A stretch of 64,000 nucleotides of DNA, taken from contig CAWGEI010000005.1 in NCBI GenBank assembly GCA_963821585.1, forward strand, positions 1,014,682 to 1,078,681, in the 5' to 3' direction. The position numbers and the translations under genes are program-made. The notes under the pieces were generated by a model that made no database searches, was not told the origin of the DNA, and saw only the letters and a list, made by a program, of their open reading frames with translations. The DNA comes from an uncultured Acidobacteriota bacterium. Its GTDB lineage: Bacteria; Acidobacteriota; Thermoanaerobaculia; Gp7-AA8. Positions within the stretch are counted from its first letter, which is position 1, and every line of letters starts with the position of its first letter. Shown here in pieces: positions 13,915-49,950 of this stretch.

Positions 13915-14409
13915 ATGAAGACCGTTTTCGAAGGCGACCACGTCTACGTTCTCGAGCGCGACCACTGGCAGTACGTGGAGCGCAAGAAGGGGAAGGAAGC
14001 CGCCGCGGTGCTGGCGGAGACGGAGGATGGCGAGATCATTCTCACCGAGCAGTTCCGCCGGCCGTTGAATGCGAACGTCATCGACTTCCCGGCGGGACTC
14101 ATCGGTGACGAGGAGCCGGATACGGACGGTGCGGAGACGGCGAAGAAGGAGCTGGAGGAGGAGGCGGGGTACACGTGCGATTCCGTCGAGCTGCTCGCAC
14201 GCGGCCCGAGCTCGCCGGGGATCACGTCGGAGATCGTGAGCCTCTACCGCGCGCACGGCGTGCGGAAGACCGGGAAGGGCGGAGGCGTGGGAGGCGAGGA
14301 CATCACCGTCCACGTGATTCCGCGCGCGCGGCTGCGCTCGTTCCTGCGGGAGAAGCAGGAGCAGGGCGTGCTGACGGACCTGAAAGTCGCTCTCTGGTTT
14401 CAAACGTAG
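13915..14409 (+). CDS. NUDIX hydrolase (ADP-ribose pyrophosphatase-like)
   Basis: QFRRP, FPAGLIG...AKKELEEEAG Nudix box. Confidence 0.9.
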   Translation: MKTVFEGDHVYVLERDHWQYVERKKGKEAAAVLAETEDGEIILTEQFRRPLNANVIDFPAGLIGDEEPDTDGAETAKKELEEEAGYTCDSVELLARGPSSPGITSEIVSLYRAHGVRKTGKGGGVGGEDITVHVIPRARLRSFLREKQEQGVLTDLKVALWFQT

Positions 14410-14492
14410 GGCGTGGCTTCAGCCCGCCTCCTCGTGCAGACGCACCGTCCCCCGCCCACGAGAGGGGCGGGCTGAAGCCACGCCCTACGTTT
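14402..14492. repeat. GTAG-type REP doublet (family 1)
   Basis: AAACGTAGGGCGTGGCTTCAGCCCGCC and its perfect reverse complement, 27-bp arms. Confidence 0.9.
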
Positions 14493-23041: not shown

Positions 23042-23132
23042 GAGCTTTGCGTAAAGTGTAACGCGCGCGCGCCGTACGTGCGCGGGGAAAGTCCGGCTCG
23101 CTGTGGAACGCAACCCGCAATGTGCACGGCCG

Positions 23133-23822
23133 ATGGATCATGCCGTCGCTCTGGTTCAGGCCTATCTGCAACTGAACGGCTACTTCACCTCGGCCGAGTA
23201 TCCGATCATCGCAGGGGCCGGCCGCAACGGCTTCCGCACGATCACGGACATCGACATTCTCGCCTTCCGCTTCCCGACGGGCGAGCCGATGGCGAAGCGG
23301 CCGAGCAAGGCGCCGAAGGGTCTCGACGTCACCGGTCTCGACGACGGGCTCGCGGTGCCGACGGACTCGATCGACATGATCATCGGCGAGGTGAAAGAAG
23401 GGCGGGTGAACCTCAACTCCGGCATCCGCGATCCGGACGTTCTGCGCACGGTGATCAACCGCTTCGGCCAGGTCGGCGACACGGACCGCGTCGTCCAGCA
23501 GTTGCTGCACACGGGTAAGGCGGAGATCCCGCCCTCGTACTCGGTGCGGCTCATCGCCTTCGGCTCGTTCCCGCCCGGCTCCGAGATTCCTCCCTGCCGC
23601 ATCATCAGCCTCGGGCACGTCCTGCAGTTCCTGCAGGGCTACGTGCGCAAGCACTGGAACATGCTCCGCCACCTGCAGTTCAAGGACCCGGCGTTCGGGT
23701 TCCTGATGACGCTGGAGAAAGCGCGCCGCGGCGGTGCGGGCAGGCGCGGGGAACAGGGCGTCGAGATCGTGCCGCCCCTGGGCGAGGCGCAGAGGCAGCA
23801 CCGACCCGACCGGCGGCGGTAG
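23133..23822 (+). CDS. Hypothetical protein with putative PD-(D/E)xK nuclease fold
   Basis: LVQAYLQLNGYF ... TDIDILAFR ... IIGEVKEG. Confidence 0.65.
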   Translation: MDHAVALVQAYLQLNGYFTSAEYPIIAGAGRNGFRTITDIDILAFRFPTGEPMAKRPSKAPKGLDVTGLDDGLAVPTDSIDMIIGEVKEGRVNLNSGIRDPDVLRTVINRFGQVGDTDRVVQQLLHTGKAEIPPSYSVRLIAFGSFPPGSEIPPCRIISLGHVLQFLQGYVRKHWNMLRHLQFKDPAFGFLMTLEKARRGGAGRRGEQGVEIVPPLGEAQRQHRPDRRR

Positions 23823-23886
23823 AAACGTAGGGCGCGGCTTCAGCCCGCCTCCCCGTGGGCGGGCGGGCTGAAGCCACGCCCTACGT
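23823..23886. repeat. GTAG-type REP doublet (family 1)
   Basis: AAACGTAGGGCGCGGCTTCAGCCCGCC ... GGCGGGCTGAAGCCACGCCCTACGT between convergent genes. Confidence 0.9.
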
Positions 23887-25266
23887 CGCGACGCGGTTGC
23901 GGCCCTGGCGTTTGGCGTCGTAGAGCGCCGCGTCGGCGACACGCAGGAAGTCGCCGGAGCCGGTGCCGTCGCGCGGCGGGATCACGGACGCAACGCCGAT
24001 GCTCACGGTCACATGTCCGAGAGGGGCGGAGGGATGCGAGAGCTTCATCTCTTCGACACGCTCGCGGAGGCGCGTCGCGATCTCCAGCGCGTGCCCGGCG
24101 TCGGTCTCGGGAAGCAGGATCGCGAACTCCTCGCCGCCGTAGCGGGAGACGAGGTCGCCGGCGCGCTGGACGCACTCGCACAGCATGTCCGCGACGCGGC
24201 GCAGGCATTCGTCGCCGGCCTGATGCCCGGAGGTGTCGTTGAACGGCTTGAAGTAGTCGATGTCGAGCATCAGCAGCGACAGCGGGGCGCGGCTGCGCGC
24301 GGCGCGCCGCCACTCGATGGCGAGCGTCTCGTCGAAGTGCCGGCGGTTCGCCACGCCGGTGAGTCCATCCTGGGTGGAGATGCGGTGCAGCGTCTCGATC
24401 GCGCTCGCGAGGTGCTTGGTCGTCTCCCCGAGCCGCTCGTTCACCGAAGCCATGTGAAACGCGCCCGCGATCTGGTCCGCGAACGCTTCGAACGCGAGGA
24501 CGCTGGCCGGTGTGAACACGTCCGGCGACGCGCTCTCGAGACTGAGGGCGCCGAGGAGCTGGTCTTGGAAGCGGATGGGAATGACGAGGTGAGCGGGCCC
24601 GCTGCTGGCGACCGGCTGCCGTGCGATGGATACGGAGATCAGCGGGAAGCGCTCATGAATATAGCGCGTCACGCGATCGAGGAGCTCCTGCAGATCCGTC
24701 GCTTCGAGCGCGGTGCGCGAGACCTCGCTCATCATCTCCATCAGCCGCGCGCGCTGCTTCAGCTCTTCGTAGAGCTGGGCGCTCGCGATGGCGCCGGCGA
24801 TCTGGTCGCCGACGGTCTCGAGCAGCTCCAGCTGCCCGCGGAACGCCGCGGGCCGCGTGCTCTCGATATTCAGCACAGCGACGGTGCGGCCGTGGTGCTT
24901 CACCGGCACGCAGAGCTCCGAGCGCGCGCCGGGCATCGTCTCGACATAGTTGGGCCACGCGCGGACGTCGTCGATGAGCACGGGCTCGCCGGTGGCCGCG
25001 ACCTGGCCGACGACGCCGCTGCCGAGCTCCCGTCCATAGCCGACGTACACGGACGTGTCGACGGACGTGGAGAGCGCTTCGCATTGAAATGCGCCGCGCT
25101 CGAGGTCGAGCGAGATCAGCGCGACGAACTGCCAGTCGAACTGCTCCGCGAGGGTGTCGGTGATGCGCTGGAGCATCGGGCGCAGCTCGAGGTCGAGCGA
25201 GGCGATGCGCGCGACCTGGTTGAGGACTTCGAGCGAGCGGGCGTCGACTGGGAGCGTGGTCGCCAC
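23881..25266 (-). CDS. GAF-GAF-GGDEF diguanylate cyclase
   Basis: DGLTGVANRR, DIDYFK, RAGD I-site, RYGGEEF; N-terminal GAF motifs (SELCVPV). Confidence 0.92.
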   Translation of the reverse strand: MATTLPVDARSLEVLNQVARIASLDLELRPMLQRITDTLAEQFDWQFVALISLDLERGAFQCEALSTSVDTSVYVGYGRELGSGVVGQVAATGEPVLIDDVRAWPNYVETMPGARSELCVPVKHHGRTVAVLNIESTRPAAFRGQLELLETVGDQIAGAIASAQLYEELKQRARLMEMMSEVSRTALEATDLQELLDRVTRYIHERFPLISVSIARQPVASSGPAHLVIPIRFQDQLLGALSLESASPDVFTPASVLAFEAFADQIAGAFHMASVNERLGETTKHLASAIETLHRISTQDGLTGVANRRHFDETLAIEWRRAARSRAPLSLLMLDIDYFKPFNDTSGHQAGDECLRRVADMLCECVQRAGDLVSRYGGEEFAILLPETDAGHALEIATRLRERVEEMKLSHPSAPLGHVTVSIGVASVIPPRDGTGSGDFLRVADAALYDAKRQGRNRVAT

Positions 25267-42867: not shown

Positions 42868-43059
42868 CTTTCGCCCGCATACGCGGGCTGATTCTCGAAA
42901 CGACTCCGCGTTCCCCCGGCTGAAGCCGGGGGCTAGTACCGGCCGCCCGCTACGCGGGCTCGGGCTCTTGCCCGCGTAGCGGGCTGCCAGAAAATAGCCC
43001 CCGGCTTCAGCCGGGATCACCGATGTGGACCCCTGACCAGCCCGCGTAGCGGGCGAAAG
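42868..43059. repeat. Compound ~190-bp palindrome (family 3: GCCCGCGTAGCGGGC and TAGCCCCCGGCTTCAGCCGGG modules)
   Basis: A-B-A arm 42868-42960 mirrored by 42970-43059. Confidence 0.85.
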
Positions 43060-45416
43060 GAGAGGGTGCCCAGAATGAGTACGCCCATCGCGGCCAGAGC
43101 GCAACCCACCCACCACGTCCACGGCGAGTAATACATCCGCACGTCGGTCTCGCCGGGCGGGACGGCGAAGCCGAGGAACGCGCCGTTGACGCGCACGGGC
43201 TCCACACGTGCGCCGTTGCGCACGACTTTCCATCCCGGCCACCAGGGAATGCTGCTCACGACGAGCGACCAGCGCGGGGCGCTGACGTGGACGCGGTACG
43301 CCGTCGGCTCGGCGGACACGATCTTCGCGATGGCGAGCGGCGCGTTCTCGGGGCGCGGGTTGAAGAAGTCTGCGCGCTCCTGCGGGGATTCGAGCTTCAG
43401 GTCGTCGAGCAGGGCGGTGTGCGCCCAGGCGTCGTGGGTGCGCAGTTTGTCGATGAACAGCTCATCGCGGAACTCGATGATCACGTTGCGTACGGCGTAG
43501 AACCGCGGAAGCCAGCGCTTGTTCTCGTAGATCTTCCCTTCGGCCGAGTCGAGACGCAGCGTCCAGTGCTCGGGATCGGCGGGGGGCGTGCCGGGGTCCT
43601 GCGTGATGTACCGGACGTTCATGAAGTCGAGCACCGGCGCATTGGTGTTGTCGAGCCACGCGTAGTAGTCGTTCATCATCCTGTAGTTCGCGGTCACGCG
43701 GAGGAAGCCCATGTAGCGGTCATAAGCCATGGGGTCGTGAACGCGGATGTCCTCGAGCCTGAACGCGGCGTTCGTGTTCGGAAAGAGCATCGGACCCACG
43801 CCGGCGAAGCGGAAGGGCTCGCTCTTCGGCGCCGCATCGCGCAGCTCTTCGAGCCTGGCGATGAGCGGCGTGCGGCGGTACATCTGCTCGGCGGGCAGCG
43901 GCGGATTCCAAGCGCGGGTCACGGGCCAGAGCTCCCCGATGACCGCGACGAGCAGCGCGAGCAGCACGGGCTTGCGCGGCAGAAATGCGAACAGCAGCGC
44001 GATCGCGATCACCGCCACGCTGCGGGCCGACGTGAGGATCGCCACCGTTCGGTAGTGCTCGCTGGGCGGGGTCATGACCGCGAACAGCGAGATCAGCAGC
44101 GCCACGACGACCGCGCCGCCGGCGACGAGCGGCATCCGCTCGCCGCGCTGCGTGAGATCGATCGCCGCCGCGGCCTGGATGCCCATCAGCAGCACGAACA
44201 ACAGGCGGAAGCGTGCGTGCGCGACCACCGGCAGCACCGCGTGGATCGCGTCGCCGATGAGCGGCCAAGCATCGATGACCCCGAAGACGATCACCGTTGC
44301 GACGATGAAGAAGAGCTCCGTCGACCGCCACGCGCGCCGCCGGACGACGTGTACCAGCAATCCGAAAAACGCGGCGATGCCGAGGACGCCCGTGAAGCCG
44401 CCGATCAGCTCCGCCTGCACGATGCTCCACGGCTCTTCCTGCGGCGCGCGCCCGAAGTAGTGTGCCTGGAACAGCACCATCGCCGACCGCAGATCGGCAT
44501 ACGGCTGTCCCATGGCGCTCAGCGGCGCAACCTCGAGCTGCGCGTAGCGCTGTGACTTCGGCAGCGCCTCGAGGAAAGGGAGGAGGAACGGCGCGGCGAG
44601 CAGCGCCGCGATCGTCATTGCGCCGCCGAGGGTGAGAAAGATGCGCGCACTCGCGCGCTTCTCCACGAAGACGATCCAGACGAGGTAGATCAGCGAGAGA
44701 AAGAAGATGTGCGACGCGGTCTCCGGATGCCCGCCGAAGAGGATCGCCATCCATACGAATGCCGCCGCGGCGAAGCGACCGAACGTTCGCCGCTCCGCGA
44801 TGCGATCGATCAGATACAGCACTGCCGGCGCCCAGCACGCGGCCGTGACGTGCGGGAAGTGCAGCCACGAGTGGAGGAATCCACCGAAGCCGAAGATCAC
44901 CGCGCCCACCACGCTCGCCAGCTCCGAATACCCGCGTCCGCGGCAGAACAGGAACGCGAACGTCAGCGCGATCAGGATCTTCATCGCCGCCTCGGCGGTC
45001 ATGAAGTACGTGTCCGGCACCGGCAGCGCGAGGAGGCGGATCGGCGAGAGCCCCTGACTCTGTCCGTTCGCGAGCAGCGGGTACCCCGAGCCGGCGTACG
45101 CATTCCAGAGCGGCGGCTTCAGCGACTTCCAGCTCTCGCGCACCTGCAGGCCCCACGCGGTGTGCTGGAGCGGGATGTCGTTCATCTCGTCGTTGATTGC
45201 GTCCCGGTCGCTTGCCGTGACGTACCAGGGCGGCAGGGTGTTGAGGTAGTCGTCCTGGGTGATGACGAAGTGCTGCGTGAGCGGCTTGAAGAAGAAGACC
45301 AGCACCAGCGCGTAAAAAAAGAACGCCACCTTCTTCGGCAGATCGACGCCGCAACGCCGGGCGAGCGCGACCGCCCCCGCGTACAGCACGCCGATGTAGA
45401 TCCATGTCCAGTTCAT
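43017..45416 (-). CDS. YfhO-family (GT-C-like) multi-pass membrane protein, paralogue 1
   Basis: PLWNAYAGSGYPLLANGQ, GGHPET, WWPGWK, VNGAFLGFAVPPG. Confidence 0.88.
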   Translation of the reverse strand: MNWTWIYIGVLYAGAVALARRCGVDLPKKVAFFFYALVLVFFFKPLTQHFVITQDDYLNTLPPWYVTASDRDAINDEMNDIPLQHTAWGLQVRESWKSLKPPLWNAYAGSGYPLLANGQSQGLSPIRLLALPVPDTYFMTAEAAMKILIALTFAFLFCRGRGYSELASVVGAVIFGFGGFLHSWLHFPHVTAACWAPAVLYLIDRIAERRTFGRFAAAAFVWMAILFGGHPETASHIFFLSLIYLVWIVFVEKRASARIFLTLGGAMTIAALLAAPFLLPFLEALPKSQRYAQLEVAPLSAMGQPYADLRSAMVLFQAHYFGRAPQEEPWSIVQAELIGGFTGVLGIAAFFGLLVHVVRRRAWRSTELFFIVATVIVFGVIDAWPLIGDAIHAVLPVVAHARFRLLFVLLMGIQAAAAIDLTQRGERMPLVAGGAVVVALLISLFAVMTPPSEHYRTVAILTSARSVAVIAIALLFAFLPRKPVLLALLVAVIGELWPVTRAWNPPLPAEQMYRRTPLIARLEELRDAAPKSEPFRFAGVGPMLFPNTNAAFRLEDIRVHDPMAYDRYMGFLRVTANYRMMNDYYAWLDNTNAPVLDFMNVRYITQDPGTPPADPEHWTLRLDSAEGKIYENKRWLPRFYAVRNVIIEFRDELFIDKLRTHDAWAHTALLDDLKLESPQERADFFNPRPENAPLAIAKIVSAEPTAYRVHVSAPRWSLVVSSIPWWPGWKVVRNGARVEPVRVNGAFLGFAVPPGETDVRMYYSPWTWWVGCALAAMGVLILGTLSFRPLRGLVRGPHR

Positions 45417-45423
45417 ATCCAGT

Positions 45424-47805
45424 TCATGACCGCCGTACTCCATACGCAACGAGCGCGACGAGTGTCGCAATCGCCAGGATCGCGCCGAAGCGGAACGTCC
45501 ACGGGTCGTACCACACCCGCACGTCGAGCTGCCCCGGCGGCACGGCGAACCCGAGGAAGGCGCCATTCACGCGGATGGGCTGGACGCGGGCGCCGTTGCG
45601 CTCCACCTTCCAGCCCGGCCACCACGGGATGCTGCTCACCACGAGCGACCAGCGCGGCGCGCGCACGCTCAGGTGATAGTCCGTCGGCGTGGCTTCGCGG
45701 ATCTCCGCGGTCGCCACTGGTGCGTCCACCGGACGCGGCTTGAAGAAGTCTTCGCGCTGCTGCGGGCTCTCCACCGCGAGCGACTCCAGCAGCGCGGTCT
45801 GTCCCCAGTCGCGATGCTCCTTCAGCCGGTTCGCGAACGACGCGTCACGAAAGTCGATGACCACGTTCGTCACCGCGAAAAAGCGCGGCCGCACGTCCGT
45901 GTTCTCGAAGATCCGCCCGTCCGAGCCGTCGTAGCGCAGCTGGAAACGCGGCGGCAGCTCGCCACCGGCCGAAGTGAGGACGTAGCGGACATTGAGATAG
46001 TCGAGCAGCGGATGCTCCCAGTCCGGCCAGCGCGCGAAGTATTCGGTCGGATCGTATTCGACGACGTGCGAGAGCAGGCCGACGTAGCGGCCGTTGGACA
46101 TCGGATCGTGCGCGCGCACGTCCTCGTAACCGTACACGGCGGAGACGTTCGGGAACAACGTCGCGGCGTTGCCCACGACACGGAAAGGTGCGTTCTTCGG
46201 GACGTCTTTCGTGAGGTCGTCCAGCGCGCGCAACATCGGGGTCTTCGGGTACATCCAGGCCGAGGAGACGACCGGGTTCCAGTCGCGCGTGGGGATCCAG
46301 AGCTCGGCGAGAACGGCGACGAGGAGGAGCATCCGCGGGATCGGCAACGCCGCGACCGCTAGCACGATGACGCTGGGAATCATCGCCAGGATCGCGGTCT
46401 CGCGCTGGTGCGGCGTCCAGAAATTGCTCGTGAAGTACGCGACGAGCAGCAGCGCTCCGGCTCCGCCGATTCCGATGAGGACACTCATCCGGTCGCGCGT
46501 GAGCAGGTCGACCGCGCATGCCGTCAGCACCGCGAGCAGCAGGACCAGCAGCAGGCGCACGCGCGCGTTCGCGGCGAGGTGGAAGACGACCTGGAACAGA
46601 TCGCCGACGCCCGGCCAGTCGAAGATCACCGCCACCGCCACGATCGCGGCCAGGACGAAGAACGCCTCGTGCGACCGCCAGCGCCGCGTGCGGATCACGT
46701 GGACCAGCGTCGCCAGCCACGCCGCGATGCCGAGGATGCCGGCGAAGCCGGAGATCGACTCGGCGTGTGCCGGCCCCCATCCCTCGCGCGGCATCGCCCC
46801 GTGGAATTGCGGCGAGAAGATGAGGATCGCCGATGGCCAGTCGGAGTAGGGGACGGCGACGGTTTCCGTCCGCGTCTCCAGCTCCTGGTACCGCTTCGAC
46901 TTCTTCACCGCCTCGGCGAACGGCGCGAGGAACGGCGCGGCAAGGAGGACCGTGACGACGGCGGCGCCGAGGATGGCGAGGAGAAACGTAGGGCGTGGCT
47001 TCAGCCCGCCCGCCCCCGGGGGAGGCGGGCTGAAGCCACGCCCTACGTTTGCTCCAACCCAGAGCACGTACAGCGCCGCGAGAAACGCCGTGTGCGAGAC
47101 GGTCTCCGGATGTCCGCCGAAGAGCATCGCCGCGCCGATGACGGACAGCGCGACGAAGCGCGCGTACGTCACGCGCTCGGCGAGGAGGTCGAGGACGTAG
47201 AACACGGCCGGCACGAGGCACGCCGTCGTGATCAGCGGGAAGTGCAGCCAGACGATGATGAACGTCGAGAAGCCGAAGGCGGCGGCTCCCGTCGCGGACG
47301 CGAGCTCGGAGTACCCGCGGCGGCGGCACCAGAGAAAGGTGAACGTCAGCGCGATCAGCACTTTCATCGCCGCCTCGAAGGACAGTGCGTGCGCGAGCGA
47401 GAGCGGGAGCCCGAGGATGCGCAGGGGCGAGAGCGCGGAGCTCTGCGCGCTGGCGAGCAGCGGGTAGCCCGCGCCGGAGAACTGGTTCCACAGCGGGGCG
47501 TGCAGCGACTTCCACCCCTCGCGCACCTGGTGCGCCCACGGGACGATCTGCAGGGCGAGGTCGTTGAGCTGGACGTTCCCGGCGTGGAAGTTCTCCGGGA
47601 CGGTGTACTCCCACGGCGGGAGCGTGCCGAGGAAGTCCACGGACGTGTTCACCGCGTCCCGGGTGAGGACCGGATAGAAGAAGACGAAGACGAGGGCGTA
47701 GAAGAAGAAGGCCACGCGCCGCGGCAGATCGATTCCGCCGCGCCGCGCCAGCCAGACCGCGCCGGCGTACACCGCTCCCGTGTAAAGCCAGGTCGGGTTG
47801 AACAC
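45424..47805 (-). CDS. YfhO-family membrane protein, paralogue 2 (contains in-frame REP)
   Basis: Same motifs as paralogue 1; GTG start at 47805 after TATCAT. Confidence 0.88.
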   Translation of the reverse strand: MFNPTWLYTGAVYAGAVWLARRGGIDLPRRVAFFFYALVFVFFYPVLTRDAVNTSVDFLGTLPPWEYTVPENFHAGNVQLNDLALQIVPWAHQVREGWKSLHAPLWNQFSGAGYPLLASAQSSALSPLRILGLPLSLAHALSFEAAMKVLIALTFTFLWCRRRGYSELASATGAAAFGFSTFIIVWLHFPLITTACLVPAVFYVLDLLAERVTYARFVALSVIGAAMLFGGHPETVSHTAFLAALYVLWVGANVGRGFSPPPPGAGGLKPRPTFLLAILGAAVVTVLLAAPFLAPFAEAVKKSKRYQELETRTETVAVPYSDWPSAILIFSPQFHGAMPREGWGPAHAESISGFAGILGIAAWLATLVHVIRTRRWRSHEAFFVLAAIVAVAVIFDWPGVGDLFQVVFHLAANARVRLLLVLLLAVLTACAVDLLTRDRMSVLIGIGGAGALLLVAYFTSNFWTPHQRETAILAMIPSVIVLAVAALPIPRMLLLVAVLAELWIPTRDWNPVVSSAWMYPKTPMLRALDDLTKDVPKNAPFRVVGNAATLFPNVSAVYGYEDVRAHDPMSNGRYVGLLSHVVEYDPTEYFARWPDWEHPLLDYLNVRYVLTSAGGELPPRFQLRYDGSDGRIFENTDVRPRFFAVTNVVIDFRDASFANRLKEHRDWGQTALLESLAVESPQQREDFFKPRPVDAPVATAEIREATPTDYHLSVRAPRWSLVVSSIPWWPGWKVERNGARVQPIRVNGAFLGFAVPPGQLDVRVWYDPWTFRFGAILAIATLVALVAYGVRRS
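46984..47050. repeat. Family-1 REP doublet inside a CDS
   Basis: 27-bp arms identical to those at 14402-14492; translated as NVGRGFSPPPPGAGGLKPRPTF. Confidence 0.92.
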
Positions 47806-47835
47806 GGCGGCGGATGATACCTTGGCGACGCTCGA

Positions 47836-49950
47836 ATGAACCTTTCCTGGCTCCTCGTAGCCATCGTCTACGTCCTCGGCGTCATCATCGCGCGCCGCTG
47901 CGGCGCGGACCTGTCGAAGCGCATCGCCGCGCTGTTCTTCGTCCTCGTCTTCGGCTTCCTGTGGCGGCCGCTGACCCAGGAGGTGGTGATCGTGCCGGCG
48001 GACGTACTGAAACTCGTGGAGCCGTGGTCCACGATCCGCGCGCCGAACCGGCCGCCGGTCACCAAGTACGAGGTGTCGAACCTGAACCTGCACGACGTGC
48101 CGATGCAGATCGTCCCGTGGATGCACCAGGTGCGCGAGTCGTGGCGGCGCGGGGAGGTGCCGCTCTGGAACGCGTCGGCGGGGTGCGGCTATCCGCTGAT
48201 GGCCAACGGCCAGAGCACGCCGTTCTCGCCGTTCATTCTGCTCACGCTTCCGCTCCCCCTAGGCTACGCGATCACCGCGCAGTGCGCGCTGAAGCTGCTG
48301 CTCGCGCTGGTGCTGACGTATCTGTTCTGCCGCCGGCGCTGGTCGCCGCTGGCGTCGGTGATCGCGGCGATCGCGTACGGCTTCTCGACGTGGATGCTGA
48401 CGTGGCTGCAGTTCCCGATCGCGACGGCGGCGGCGCTGCTGCCGGGGGTGATTCTGGCGATCGAGTTACTAGGAGCGCCGGCCAGCGGCCGGCGCTCCTT
48501 TGCTTTCGCCGTTTTCCTCTTCGCAATCACCGTCCTCTCCGGCCACCCGGAGACCATCTTCAACCTCGGCCTCATCGCCGCGCTGCACGGCCTCTGGATC
48601 GCCAACGTGCGCGGGCTGCTGCGCGTCATCGCCGCGTGCGCGCTGGCAGCGGTCATCACGGCCCCCTACCTCGTCCCGTTCTACGAGGCGGTCACGCGCT
48701 CGCAGCGCTTCGCCGAGATGCACGCGCCGCGCGACATCACGCCTCCCTTCTCCGACCGCGCCTCGGCAGCCCTGCTGATCCAGCCCCGCTTCTTCGGCGA
48801 GCTTCCGATCGAGCGTCCCTGGGGGCCGGCCACGCTGGAGTCGATCTGCGGCTTCGCGGGTGTTCTCGCGCTGGCGTCGCTCGTCGCAGCCGTCTTCATC
48901 ATCCGAAAGTGGCGCAGCATCGAGACGCTTTACGTCCTCGGTGCCATCCTCTGTTTCGGCATCGTCCTCGGCTGGCCGTGGATCAGCGAAGGGTTTCACG
49001 CGATCGCGGGACTGGCGCCGGCGATGCGCATGCGTCTCGGTATCTGCTGGTTCGCGGCGATCCTCATCGCGCCGGTGATCGATCACCCGCGCCGCTTTCC
49101 GCTGCTCGTCGGAGCGCTCGCCGTGGCTGCGACGCTGCTCTGGCTGATGCGCACGACGCCGTTCCCGACGGAATCGCATCGCGCGTCCGCGCTGCTCTCC
49201 CTCCTCCCGAGCCTCGCCGTGCTCGCCGCGATCGCGCTGGCCGCGTTCCGCCGCGAGCTGCTCGTTGTGGCCGGCGCGCTCACGTTCGCCGAGCTCGCGC
49301 TGGCCATGGCGACGTGGAATCCGGTCCGGCCCGCGCGTGAGCTGAATCCGCGCACGCCGCTCATTGCGCAGCTCGAACAGCGCCGCGGTCTCCACCGCAT
49401 CGCCGGCCTCGGCGGGCAGCTCTACCCCAACACCGGCGCGCTGTTCGGCCTGGAGGACGTGCGCGTTCACGATCCGATGGCGTTCGCGCCCTATGTCGAC
49501 CTCCTGGCGCAGAAAGCGGGCTGGAATCCCGCGGACTACTACGCGAAATGGAACGATCCGGATTCGCCGCTGCTGGATCGGCTGAATGTGAAGTACATCA
49601 TCACCGCGGAGGGCCGCATCGTGGAGAACGCCGATGCGCGCGCGCGTTTCTACTCGGACGGTGCCGAAGTGCAGATGACCCGCGCCTCGGACACTGACTA
49701 CCGGCTGCACATCCGCGCCCGACAGCACGCGCTGATCTCGAGCAGCATCGCCAGTTATCCCGGCTGGACCGCAGGCCGGTTCAACGTCTTCGAGTCGGAC
49801 GGCCCCTTCATCGCCTTCATGGTCCCGCCGGGCGAGCACGACGTCACGGTGCAGTACCGGCCGCGGTCGTTCTACTGGCCGCTCATTCCGTCAGCGCTCG
49901 CCACAGCGTTCGTGCTTTTTGGAACGCTTCGGGCTCGTCGCCTTCGATGA
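47836..49950 (+). CDS. YfhO-family membrane protein, paralogue 3
   Basis: PLWNASAGCGYPLMANGQ, SGHPET, DVRVHDPM, YPGW, VPPGEH. Confidence 0.88.
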   Translation: MNLSWLLVAIVYVLGVIIARRCGADLSKRIAALFFVLVFGFLWRPLTQEVVIVPADVLKLVEPWSTIRAPNRPPVTKYEVSNLNLHDVPMQIVPWMHQVRESWRRGEVPLWNASAGCGYPLMANGQSTPFSPFILLTLPLPLGYAITAQCALKLLLALVLTYLFCRRRWSPLASVIAAIAYGFSTWMLTWLQFPIATAAALLPGVILAIELLGAPASGRRSFAFAVFLFAITVLSGHPETIFNLGLIAALHGLWIANVRGLLRVIAACALAAVITAPYLVPFYEAVTRSQRFAEMHAPRDITPPFSDRASAALLIQPRFFGELPIERPWGPATLESICGFAGVLALASLVAAVFIIRKWRSIETLYVLGAILCFGIVLGWPWISEGFHAIAGLAPAMRMRLGICWFAAILIAPVIDHPRRFPLLVGALAVAATLLWLMRTTPFPTESHRASALLSLLPSLAVLAAIALAAFRRELLVVAGALTFAELALAMATWNPVRPARELNPRTPLIAQLEQRRGLHRIAGLGGQLYPNTGALFGLEDVRVHDPMAFAPYVDLLAQKAGWNPADYYAKWNDPDSPLLDRLNVKYIITAEGRIVENADARARFYSDGAEVQMTRASDTDYRLHIRARQHALISSSIASYPGWTAGRFNVFESDGPFIAFMVPPGEHDVTVQYRPRSFYWPLIPSALATAFVLFGTLRARRLR

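What the first reader, a model, noticed from the sequence alone, without database searches (positions are those of the whole stretch)
46984..47050. Complete REP doublet translated in-frame inside a YfhO membrane protein
The 67-bp element has 27-bp arms identical to the intergenic copy at 14402-14492 and lies within the intact ORF, giving ANVGRGFSPPPPGAGGLKPRPTF between two TM helices. The in-window paralogues act as controls and have short loops here (WIVFVEKRASARIF; WIANVRGLL). The frame used avoids the element's TAG. This parallels Rickettsia palindromic elements in coding genes, but with a GTAG-type REP. Perfect arms suggest a recent event.
Basis: seen in the sequence. Interest (0 to 1): 0.7.

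Follow-up and report, generated by a model that had tools for sequence, protein, structure and literature searches.

The report
Mobile palindrome translated inside membrane glycosyltransferase
A small mobile DNA palindrome that normally sits between genes lies in frame inside a membrane glycosyltransferase gene and lengthens one loop of the protein, which is a real but already described kind of event that is common in this soil bacterium.

Summary
Window 46984-47050 is a perfect 67-nt GTAG-type REP doublet, one of 275 family elements in the genome. It lies in frame in a 793-aa YfhO/GT-C gene (45424-47805, minus strand) and encodes NVGRGFSPPPPGAGGLKPRPTF in a low-confidence loop between two predicted helices.

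It is not a simple insertion. Closely related alleles (soil metagenome contigs, 11 orthologues, database proteins) carry 33 nt (LVFVERGSPRV) where this genome has 75 nt.

It does not look recent or private. Filled alleles occur in at least three diverged lineages. One relative keeps only the element's ends. Filled and empty alleles interleave on the gene tree.

It is not unique. 31 of 275 elements are read through by coding-like ORFs, and 21 of 30 host ORFs have Pfam domains, mostly at loops or linkers. Several sites (ArsA, GH3, AcrB, amine oxidase) are shared between species with the frame kept.

GTAG REP dimers inside ORFs, encoding 20-30 residues, were published in 2013 (PMC3733652). This scan has already reported such cases in this genome. 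The verdict is a new member of a known kind. Translation is inferred, not shown, and no cognate RAYT was identified.

The parts
46984..47050 (.). REP doublet (REPIN-like palindrome) of 67 nt. The family-conserved part is 46985-47049 (AAY...RTT, 65 nt).
   Evidence: Flank logos show conservation only out to +-3 nt. The 67 nt are identical to 2 other genomic copies.
46988..47010 (+). Left REP unit: GTAG head plus an imperfect stem-loop with one bulged T.
   Evidence: 0 mismatches. A single unit folds at -10.7 kcal/mol.
47011..47023 (.). 13-nt spacer or loop between the two units. It has the commonest loop sequence of the family.
   Evidence: this loop is found in 19 of the 13-nt-loop copies.
47024..47046 (-). 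Right REP unit, inverted.
   Evidence: 0 mismatches.
46984..47058 (-). 75-nt block (the element plus 8 nt) that stands where empty alleles have 33 nt encoding LVFVERGSPRV.
   Evidence: tables 5 and 5c: contigs of 3 soil runs from 3 studies join 46983 to 47059 with 33 other letters between. Orthologue alignments.
45424..47805 (-). Host gene: a 793-aa YfhO-family membrane protein with a GT-C glycosyltransferase fold. The element encodes residues N253-F274.
   Evidence: Pfam PF09586 at 54.2 bits against a cut-off of 28.5. Annotated form P0122. Structure model and Foldseek matches to AftD, AglB, ArnT and STT3. dN/dS is 0.13 against G038.
43017..45416 (-). Tandem YfhO paralogue with a short loop at the insertion position.
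47836..49950 (+). Divergent YfhO paralogue with a short loop at the insertion position.
14402..14492 (.). Intergenic copy of the same family with a long loop. Its arms are identical to those of the genic copy.
23824..23887 (.). Third copy of the family in the window, lying between convergent ORFs.

Best explanation
The element is a member of a GTAG-tagged REP-doublet (REPIN-like) family of about 275 elements that has come to lie inside the coding sequence of a GT-C/YfhO membrane glycosyltransferase.

Shown here:
- The 67-nt palindrome plus 8 nt stands where related alleles have 33 nt, so the frame is kept and the loop between two predicted helices grows by 14 residues.
- The gene is otherwise intact and conserved.
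- The same family is read through by coding-like ORFs at about 30 other places in the genome, mostly in loops and interdomain linkers.
- At several of these places the ORF stays open through the element in other species.

Inferred:
- The element is transcribed and translated as the Gly/Pro-rich, disordered peptide NVGRGFSPPPPGAGGLKPRPTF.
- It is tolerated as a near-neutral passenger, not used by the cell.

Why this family can do this: in the 13-nt-loop form, two of the three frames on each strand have no stop. Because the element is a palindrome, both orientations give the same two peptides. Selection then removes every copy that breaks a frame or lands in a structured part of a protein.

The site is old and polymorphic, with filled, empty and decayed alleles in related lineages. 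The perfect copy in this genome most likely reflects overwriting by the genome's current master sequence (gene conversion or re-insertion), not a recent first hit. The enzyme that moves the family was not identified.
For: Anatomy. There are 496 arms with at most 3 mismatches, forming 221 inverted doublets and 54 singles. Each unit has a GTAG head and its own hairpin. No target-site duplication of 3 nt or more rises above the control.

In-frame replacement: searches show that 11 of 11 aligned orthologues lack it, with a net difference of +42 nt. In one search, contigs of 3 soil runs, about 96-97% identical to the window in the flanking stretches, carry 33 nt instead of 75.

Independent filled alleles: P0001/P0123 and P0125.

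Decayed allele: G038 keeps the two ends of the element with the inner 42 nt missing. P0002 shows the same at protein level.

Gene under constraint: dN/dS is 0.13 against G038, 0.19 against G013 and 0.19 against G014.

Loop position: the structure model has helices at 226-246 and 265-293 and pLDDT below 50 at 248-263, in 786-residue numbering.

Genome-wide: 31 of 275 elements are spanned by an ORF with a coding GC pattern on both sides. 21 of the 30 other host ORFs have Pfam domains at E <= 1e-5, including DnaX, ArsA, AcrB, GH3, PTS EI, BlaR1-type M56 and two more YfhO genes.

Frame kept across species: ArsA in 6 of 6 genomes, GH3 in 4, amine oxidase in G000 and G006, AcrB in 2.

Frame filter: 13-nt loops make up 20 of 28 genic doublets but 38 of 193 others (odds ratio 10.2, p = 9e-8).
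Against: - No RNA or protein evidence covers the element. The one RNA contig laid lies at 47087-47290 and stops short of it.
- In the three DNA metagenomes laid, only the empty form was bridged by a contig. The filled form in this exact gene rests on this assembly plus called proteins from other assemblies.
- A -76 kcal/mol hairpin inside an mRNA could hinder translation or attract nucleases, so the protein level may be reduced.
- 9 of the 30 other host ORFs have no Pfam support, and the coding test is a crude GC-position rule.
- The 65-nt conserved unit is not a multiple of three. How in-frame copies arise (an extra base, or accompanying deletions) is not resolved. Here 33 nt were lost and 75 nt gained by an unknown route.
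- No RAYT gene flanked by this family was found.
Confidence: 0.8

Rival explanations
1. The element has been put to use. Either the added loop or the strong mRNA/DNA hairpin changes the activity, regulation or stability of this glycosyltransferase, and selection keeps it.
For: Filled alleles persist in at least three diverged lineages, with the arm-encoded residues conserved. Presence and absence interleave on the gene tree, which long-lived balanced alleles could produce. The ArsA linker is repeat-encoded in 6 of 6 genomes examined.
Against: The same peptide occurs in about 20 unrelated proteins. Empty alleles are common: 50 of 117 homologues with a measurable loop have the basal length. One lineage deleted the core of the element without other damage to the gene. 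Different palindrome families occupy the same loops, which fits a permissive site better than a specific function.
Confidence: 0.1
2. The gene is a recent pseudogene. The insertion inactivated it and the open frame is a coincidence.
For: The insert adds 14 residues and three positive charges to a short inter-helix loop of a polytopic membrane protein. Two paralogues next door, and many more in the genome (36 matches in G000), could cover a loss.
Against: The 793-codon frame is fully open and the net change is a multiple of three. dN/dS is 0.13 against G038, which carries the derived allele too. Filled alleles are kept intact in other lineages.
Confidence: 0.06
3. The element is an assembly artefact, with a repeat copy wrongly placed into the gene.
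For: The family has about 275 elements. Short-read assemblies of relatives break at these repeats (G013 DnaX and G038 amine oxidase). No metagenome contig bridged the filled form.
Against: Independent assemblies give proteins with the element at the same position but with different flanks and loops (P0001, P0123, P0125). G038 has its remnant at the same position. The block is exactly in frame, and 8 non-repeat bases differ from the empty allele.
Confidence: 0.02
4. The palindrome is removed from the transcript or bypassed by the ribosome, so the protein has no added loop.
For: No direct evidence. A very stable hairpin is a conceivable substrate for double-strand-specific RNases.
Against: Taking out the 67-, 65- or 59-nt palindrome leaves 8, 10 or 16 nt in place of 33, and none of these keeps the frame. 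Differences between species inside shared elements sum to multiples of three. Loop lengths compatible with an open frame are enriched 10-fold among genic copies. Both points are expected only if the element is read by ribosomes.
Confidence: 0.02

Closest known systems
Intragenic GTAG-tagged REPs and REP dimers (Di Nocera, De Gregorio and Rocco 2013, PMC3733652; passages read; its Additional file 3 was not seen)
   Same: Units have a GTAG head and a stem-loop and are mostly paired in inverted orientation. They are mostly extragenic and close to ORF 3' ends, and the TAG of GTAG serves as a stop codon. A minority lie wholly inside ORFs of known proteins. Dimers encode 20-30 residues and are thought to sit in flexible linkers or loops.
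   Different: The phylum differs (names given by NCBI to homologues say Thermoanaerobaculia), and so does the family sequence. Here the empty, filled and decayed alleles of one site are all seen, the filled and empty alleles interleave on the gene tree, and copies at shared sites follow each species' own master variant. I did not see these points in the passages I read.
REPINs and RAYT transposases (Bertels and Rainey 2011, PMC3116915; search listing and abstract only)
   Same: Two inverted REPs separated by a short spacer form one long hairpin. There are hundreds of copies per genome with one dominant master sequence, and the family is patchily distributed within the genus (6 of 35 genomes with the 23-nt core).
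   Different: No RAYT gene flanked by this family was found. The three Y1-transposase genes of the genome lie more than 3 kb from any copy. Homologues of the two that were searched across the genus do not track the repeat family; the third was not searched.
Rickettsia palindromic elements (RPE; as cited in PMC3733652, passage read; size and composition are recalled)
   Same: Palindromic repeats are inserted in frame in ORFs that likely still encode working proteins, adding a peptide segment.
   Different: RPEs are longer, AT-rich elements of an obligate intracellular alphaproteobacterium (recalled). No sequence relation to this family was tested or is expected.
Bacterial MITEs inserted in or next to genes (review PMC10969869; search listing and abstract only)
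   Same: Small, non-autonomous, hairpin-forming repeats that can end up in coding sequence.
   Different: MITEs have terminal inverted repeats of an IS element and target-site duplications. No duplication of 3 nt or more was found here.

Membership tests
GTAG-tagged REP / REPIN | GTAG tetranucleotide at the outer end of each unit | tested here: met
   364 of 496 arms match the 23-nt GTAG core exactly.
GTAG-tagged REP / REPIN | Each unit is a 20-40-nt imperfect palindrome able to form its own stem-loop | tested here: met
   The 23-nt unit folds as a 7-bp stem with one bulge at -10.7 kcal/mol.
GTAG-tagged REP / REPIN | Two units in inverted orientation with a short spacer, folding into one long hairpin | tested here: met
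   221 of 275 elements are inverted doublets. The genic copy folds at -76.2 kcal/mol, z = -10.6.
GTAG-tagged REP / REPIN | High copy number, dispersed, mainly extragenic | tested here: met
   Arms lie on 4 of 5 contigs. 244 of 275 elements are not read through by a coding-like ORF. That test is crude.
GTAG-tagged REP / REPIN | A cognate RAYT (Y1 transposase) gene flanked by the same repeats | tested here: not met
   There are 3 PF01797 matches in the genome and none within 3 kb of a family copy. One of them (L043) is flanked by other repeat families. The genus distribution of the other two does not follow the family. The assembly is rated 88% complete, so a missing gene is possible.
GTAG-tagged REP / REPIN | No target-site duplication | tested here: met
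   Across 221 doublets, at 5 boundary offsets, identical flanks of 3 nt or more occur at most 5 times and never exceed the control.
Classical MITE | Target-site duplication flanking terminal inverted repeats | tested here: not met
Rickettsia palindromic elements | Sequence membership in an RPE family | not tested
   No RPE sequence was fetched. The comparison concerns behaviour only.
Rickettsia palindromic elements | In-frame insertion in ORFs that stay intact | tested here: met
YfhO / GT-C glycosyltransferase (host gene) | Pfam PF09586 above its gathering score | tested here: met
   54.2 bits against a 28.5-bit cut-off. Homologues are pre-annotated PF09586.
YfhO / GT-C glycosyltransferase (host gene) | GT-C fold (polytopic membrane domain plus a soluble domain) | tested here: met
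   The model has mean pLDDT 72. Foldseek gives probability 1.00 to AftD, AglB, ArnT, STT3 and DPY19, with E from 2e-7 to 1e-3 but low TM-scores of 0.3-0.5.
YfhO / GT-C glycosyltransferase (host gene) | Glycosyltransferase activity | not testable with these tools
   Needs a biochemical assay.

The most novel reading that the evidence does not exclude
Protein loops and linkers encoded by these palindromes may not evolve as ordinary coding sequence. At fixed permissive sites they would be overwritten as whole units by whatever master repeat currently dominates the genome. A selfish repeat population would then dictate, and keep refreshing, small parts of some 30 proteins, while filled and empty alleles persist side by side across related lineages.

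Evidence so far:
- The copies at the ArsA and GH3 sites carry the 23-nt master arm in G000 (4 of 4 arms exact). In G006, all 4 arms at the ArsA and GH3 sites and the right arm at the amine-oxidase site show the 22-nt bulge-less form in the alignments. That form has 738 arms in G006.
- G038 and G013 have an unrelated palindrome at the same ArsA position.
- The YfhO loop carries at least two repeat types in different orthologues.
- Its G000 copy equals the family master even though the site is old.
Probability: 0.3. Interest if true: 0.55.

Novelty: new member of a known kind. Interest (0 to 1): 0.33.

Why it matters
As a single case it is ordinary. GTAG REP dimers inside ORFs have been in print since 2013, and earlier reports of this scan already describe them in this genome. 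Its value is as a well-resolved example. One site shows the ancestral, filled and decayed states. The genome gives about 30 further in-frame copies to work with. Sites shared between species allow a test of whether repeat-encoded protein segments evolve in concert with the non-coding repeat population. For annotation, it warns that these repeats should not be masked out of genes, and that loop differences between orthologues here are repeat-driven.

Tried and rejected
- RNA evidence. The only RNA contig laid (run X19) covers 47087-47290 and does not reach the element, so it says nothing about transcription through it.
- Filled form in metagenomes. Runs X1-X3 bridged only the empty form. The element-sized contigs piling up at 46984-47050 come from other copies.
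- Orthologues of the PTS fusion gene (L017). None was found at E <= 1e-35 in 5 genomes, so that site could not be compared.
- Cognate transposase. Proximity and co-occurrence across 35 genomes of the genus gave no candidate. The L043-type gene was not searched in the genus.
- Target-site duplication. None was found.
- A donor copy sharing the 8-nt flank of the YfhO copy. None exists in the genome.
- Template switching onto the ancestral loop. The ancestral loop matches the REP arm at 11 of 16 positions by my own eye-alignment, not by any tool. I rejected this idea because the residues 5' of the element are not ancestral.
- Extension of the palindrome into the flanks. There are 4+3 extra pairs. 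I judged these to be within chance.
- Script problems. One search timed out and searches had coding errors. They were rerun.
- Side of the membrane. I did not determine on which side the loop lies.
Full report
**Observation.** Window 46984-47050 is a perfect palindrome: 27-nt arms and a 13-nt loop. The arms equal those of the copy at 14402-14492, which has a longer loop. The 23-nt GTAG core occurs 6 times in the window, as 3 inverted pairs, against none expected in 100 shuffles. As RNA the region folds at -76.2 kcal/mol, z = -10.6. The minus-strand ORF 45424-48126 reads through it as ...LYVLWVGANVGRGFSPPPPGAGGLKPRPTFLLAILG....

**The repeat family.**
- The genome (8.17 Mb, 5 contigs, 66% G+C) holds 496 arms with at most 3 mismatches, 364 of them exact. 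They form 221 inverted doublets and 54 single units.
- Loop lengths cluster at 11-14 nt, with a second group at about 38-53 nt.
- Conservation outside the GTAG ends reaches only 3 nt (A, A, C/T). The unit with a 13-nt loop is therefore 65 nt.
- One unit folds on its own into a bulged stem-loop of -10.7 kcal/mol, and there is no target-site duplication.
- This is the anatomy of GTAG-tagged REPs and their dimers (REPINs).
- The expected partner is missing. The three Y1-transposase matches (PF01797) all lie more than 3 kb from any copy. One of them (L043) is flanked by two other repeat families. Homologues of the other two do not follow the repeat's distribution in the genus.
- The 23-nt core is present in 6 of 35 genomes of the genus. 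A 22-nt variant without the bulge dominates G006 (738 arms) and is frequent in G039 (234 arms).

**Host gene.**
- The annotated product is 793 aa (P0122, found on a contig of the same length as G000's contig C5). This places the gene at 45424-47805 on the minus strand.
- It passes Pfam YfhO. Its model matches GT-C glycosyltransferases (AftD, AglB, ArnT, STT3) with Foldseek probability 1.00, though with low TM-scores.
- The element is the last base of codon 252 plus codons 253-274.
- In the model it forms the connection between helices 226-246 and 265-293 (786-residue numbering), with pLDDT below 50 at 248-263.
- The model rests on a 14-row alignment and has mean pLDDT 72.

**Filled, empty and decayed alleles.**
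- All 11 orthologues from the genus that I aligned lack the insert, as do both in-window paralogues. One of the 11, L012, is from the unpublished genome G002, and the claim does not depend on it.
- The net difference is +42 nt, not 67.
- Contigs from three soil metagenome runs of three studies, with 6-20 differences per 211-484-nt flanking stretch (about 96-97% identity), join 46983 to 47059 with 33 other letters between. Those letters encode LVFVERGSPRV, the loop seen in the orthologues.
- So 75 nt (8 nt plus the 67-nt element) stand in place of 33 nt.
- The closest genome of the genus, G038 (87.5% nucleotide identity over the gene), has a 33-nt stretch made of the same 8 nt plus the two ends of the element, with the inner 42 nt missing. 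I read this as a hairpin deletion.
- In the protein collection the best 120 of 634 hits were listed, and a loop could be measured in 117 of them.
  - P0001 and P0123 (93% identical) carry a full element with other flanks and loop (IAPSVGRGFSPTPPETGGLKPRPKF).
  - P0125 (90.5%) carries a long-loop form.
  - P0002 has the G038-type remnant.
  - P0121 and P0124 (about 92-93%) and many others are empty.
- On a tree built without the loop, filled and empty alleles interleave inside two well-supported clades. That tree has 21 rows that I picked by hand from the top hits.
- A return to the ancestral 33 nt cannot happen by mutation. I therefore infer one old origin followed by allele exchange or long-lived polymorphism. 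This is inference.
- The G000 copy is nevertheless identical over 67 nt to two other copies and carries the commonest loop. This argues for refreshment by conversion or re-insertion and against a recent first insertion.
- dN/dS is 0.13 against G038, so the gene has stayed under constraint.

**Not a single case.**
- For each of the 275 elements I asked whether an ORF runs through it with at least 40 codons on each side and with a coding GC pattern on both flanks (GC3 >= 0.78 and GC1 > GC2). 31 elements qualify: 28 doublets and 3 singles. This is a crude test.
- Of the 30 host ORFs other than the window's, 21 have Pfam families at E <= 1e-5 and 9 have none.
- The element usually falls between domains or in membrane-protein loops. 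Examples are between HPr and enzyme I of a PTS fusion, after domain III of DnaX, between the two halves of ArsA, after the GH3 N-terminal domain, and inside AcrB, a BlaR1-type M56 protein, an acyltransferase and two more YfhO genes.
- Among the 20 genic doublets with a 13-nt loop, 15 use the VGRGFSP...GLKPRPT frame and 5 use the RRAWLQP...RAEATPY frame.

**Why the frame survives.**
- Reading the sequence shows that the left arm has TAG in one frame and the right arm has TGA in one frame.
- With a 13-nt loop both stops fall in the same frame, leaving two open frames per strand. With 12- or 14-nt loops only one frame stays open.
- Because the element is a palindrome, both orientations give the same peptides.
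- Loops of 13 nt make up 20 of 28 genic doublets against 38 of 193 others (odds ratio 10.2, p = 9e-8). This exceeds the two-fold excess that stop codons alone would give. It suggests that only this length class adds a multiple of three, which is an inference. The exact inserted unit is unresolved. Net changes were +42 nt here and +69 nt in the amine oxidase gene.

**Sites shared between species.**
- The ORF stays open through a repeat at the same place in ArsA in 6 of 6 genomes. Four carry this family; G038 and G013 carry an unrelated palindrome.
- The same holds for GH3 in 4 genomes, the amine oxidase gene in G000 and G006, and AcrB in G000 and G038. In G038 the right arm of the AcrB copy is triplicated in frame.
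- In the G038 amine oxidase gene the assembly breaks inside the element.
- G006 copies carry the G006 master variant. It differs from the G000 form by three one-base deletions that together keep the frame.
- This points to replacement of whole units, or to repeated hits at the same sites.
- Other orthologues of the YfhO gene carry a different palindrome-like insert (GGWRLAVGG...PANRQPSTAN) in the same loop.

**What is not shown.** Nothing here shows transcription through the element, translation of it, the side of the membrane on which the loop lies, or the enzyme that moves the family.

**Comparison with what is known.** Di Nocera et al. 2013 (PMC3733652; passages read) already report the main features:
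- GTAG and CGTC REPs lie inside ORFs of known proteins in several species, with most intragenic GTAG copies in Opitutus terrae.
- Dimers encode 20-30 residues and probably sit in linkers or loops.
- GTAG supplies TAG stop codons.

I did not open its Additional file 3, which lists the host ORFs. That file could show whether GT-C or YfhO hosts were already listed. The same passages cite the Rickettsia palindromic elements as the first such case.

Earlier reports of this scan describe in-frame palindromes in another glycosyltransferase gene and in trmD of this same genome, and repeats that supply stop codons. My results agree with them.

**Verdict.** The finding is real and well supported, and it is a new member of a known kind. 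The parts that go beyond the literature passages I read are the allele series at one site and the species-specific master variants at shared genic sites.

Noticed in passing
window 14402-14492: The long-loop copy of the family supplies the TAG stop (14407-14409, inside GTAG) of ORF 13915-14409 (+). This behaviour is known for GTAG REPs.
   Followed up: partly
window 23824-23887: The third copy lies between convergent ORFs. ORF 23881-25266 (-) ends on the TAG of the right unit, and ORF 23103-23822 (+) ends just before the element.
   Followed up: partly
L043 (G000:C5:1111525-1114866), about 34 kb beyond the window end: A 150-aa IS200-like Y1 transposase gene has, on one side only, hairpins of two other abundant repeat families: GCCCGCGTAGCGGGC-type (about 270 14-mer counts) and AATAGACCCCGGCTTCAGCCGGGG-type (about 175-215 counts).
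   Followed up: partly
L054 (G038) and L057 (G013), ArsA linker: An unrelated palindromic repeat (TAGGAC-type, read as IGRIGPI...PIRPIGP) occupies, in frame, exactly the site that holds the GTAG doublet in G000, G006, G041 and G039.
   Followed up: partly
P0005, P0007, P0009, P0012 and L011; also L059 (G038 DnaX): Another palindrome-like insert (GGWRLAVGG...PANRQPSTAN) sits in the same YfhO loop in other orthologues. A similar PPTTNRQPPT stretch lies in the G038 DnaX linker.
   Followed up: no
L074 (G038 AcrB orthologue): The right arm of the in-frame doublet is triplicated as 27-nt (9-codon) units, giving GGLKPRPTS three times in a row.
   Followed up: no
L034 (G000:C5:347074-348675), dnaX: The linker after domain III carries a single variant REP (read as NVGRASARPAP) directly followed by a doublet, both in frame.
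   Followed up: partly
window 43017-49950 and genome-wide: Three YfhO paralogues lie side by side. The YfhO query gives 36 matches in G000 and 3-23 in other genomes of the genus, an unusually large family.
   Followed up: no
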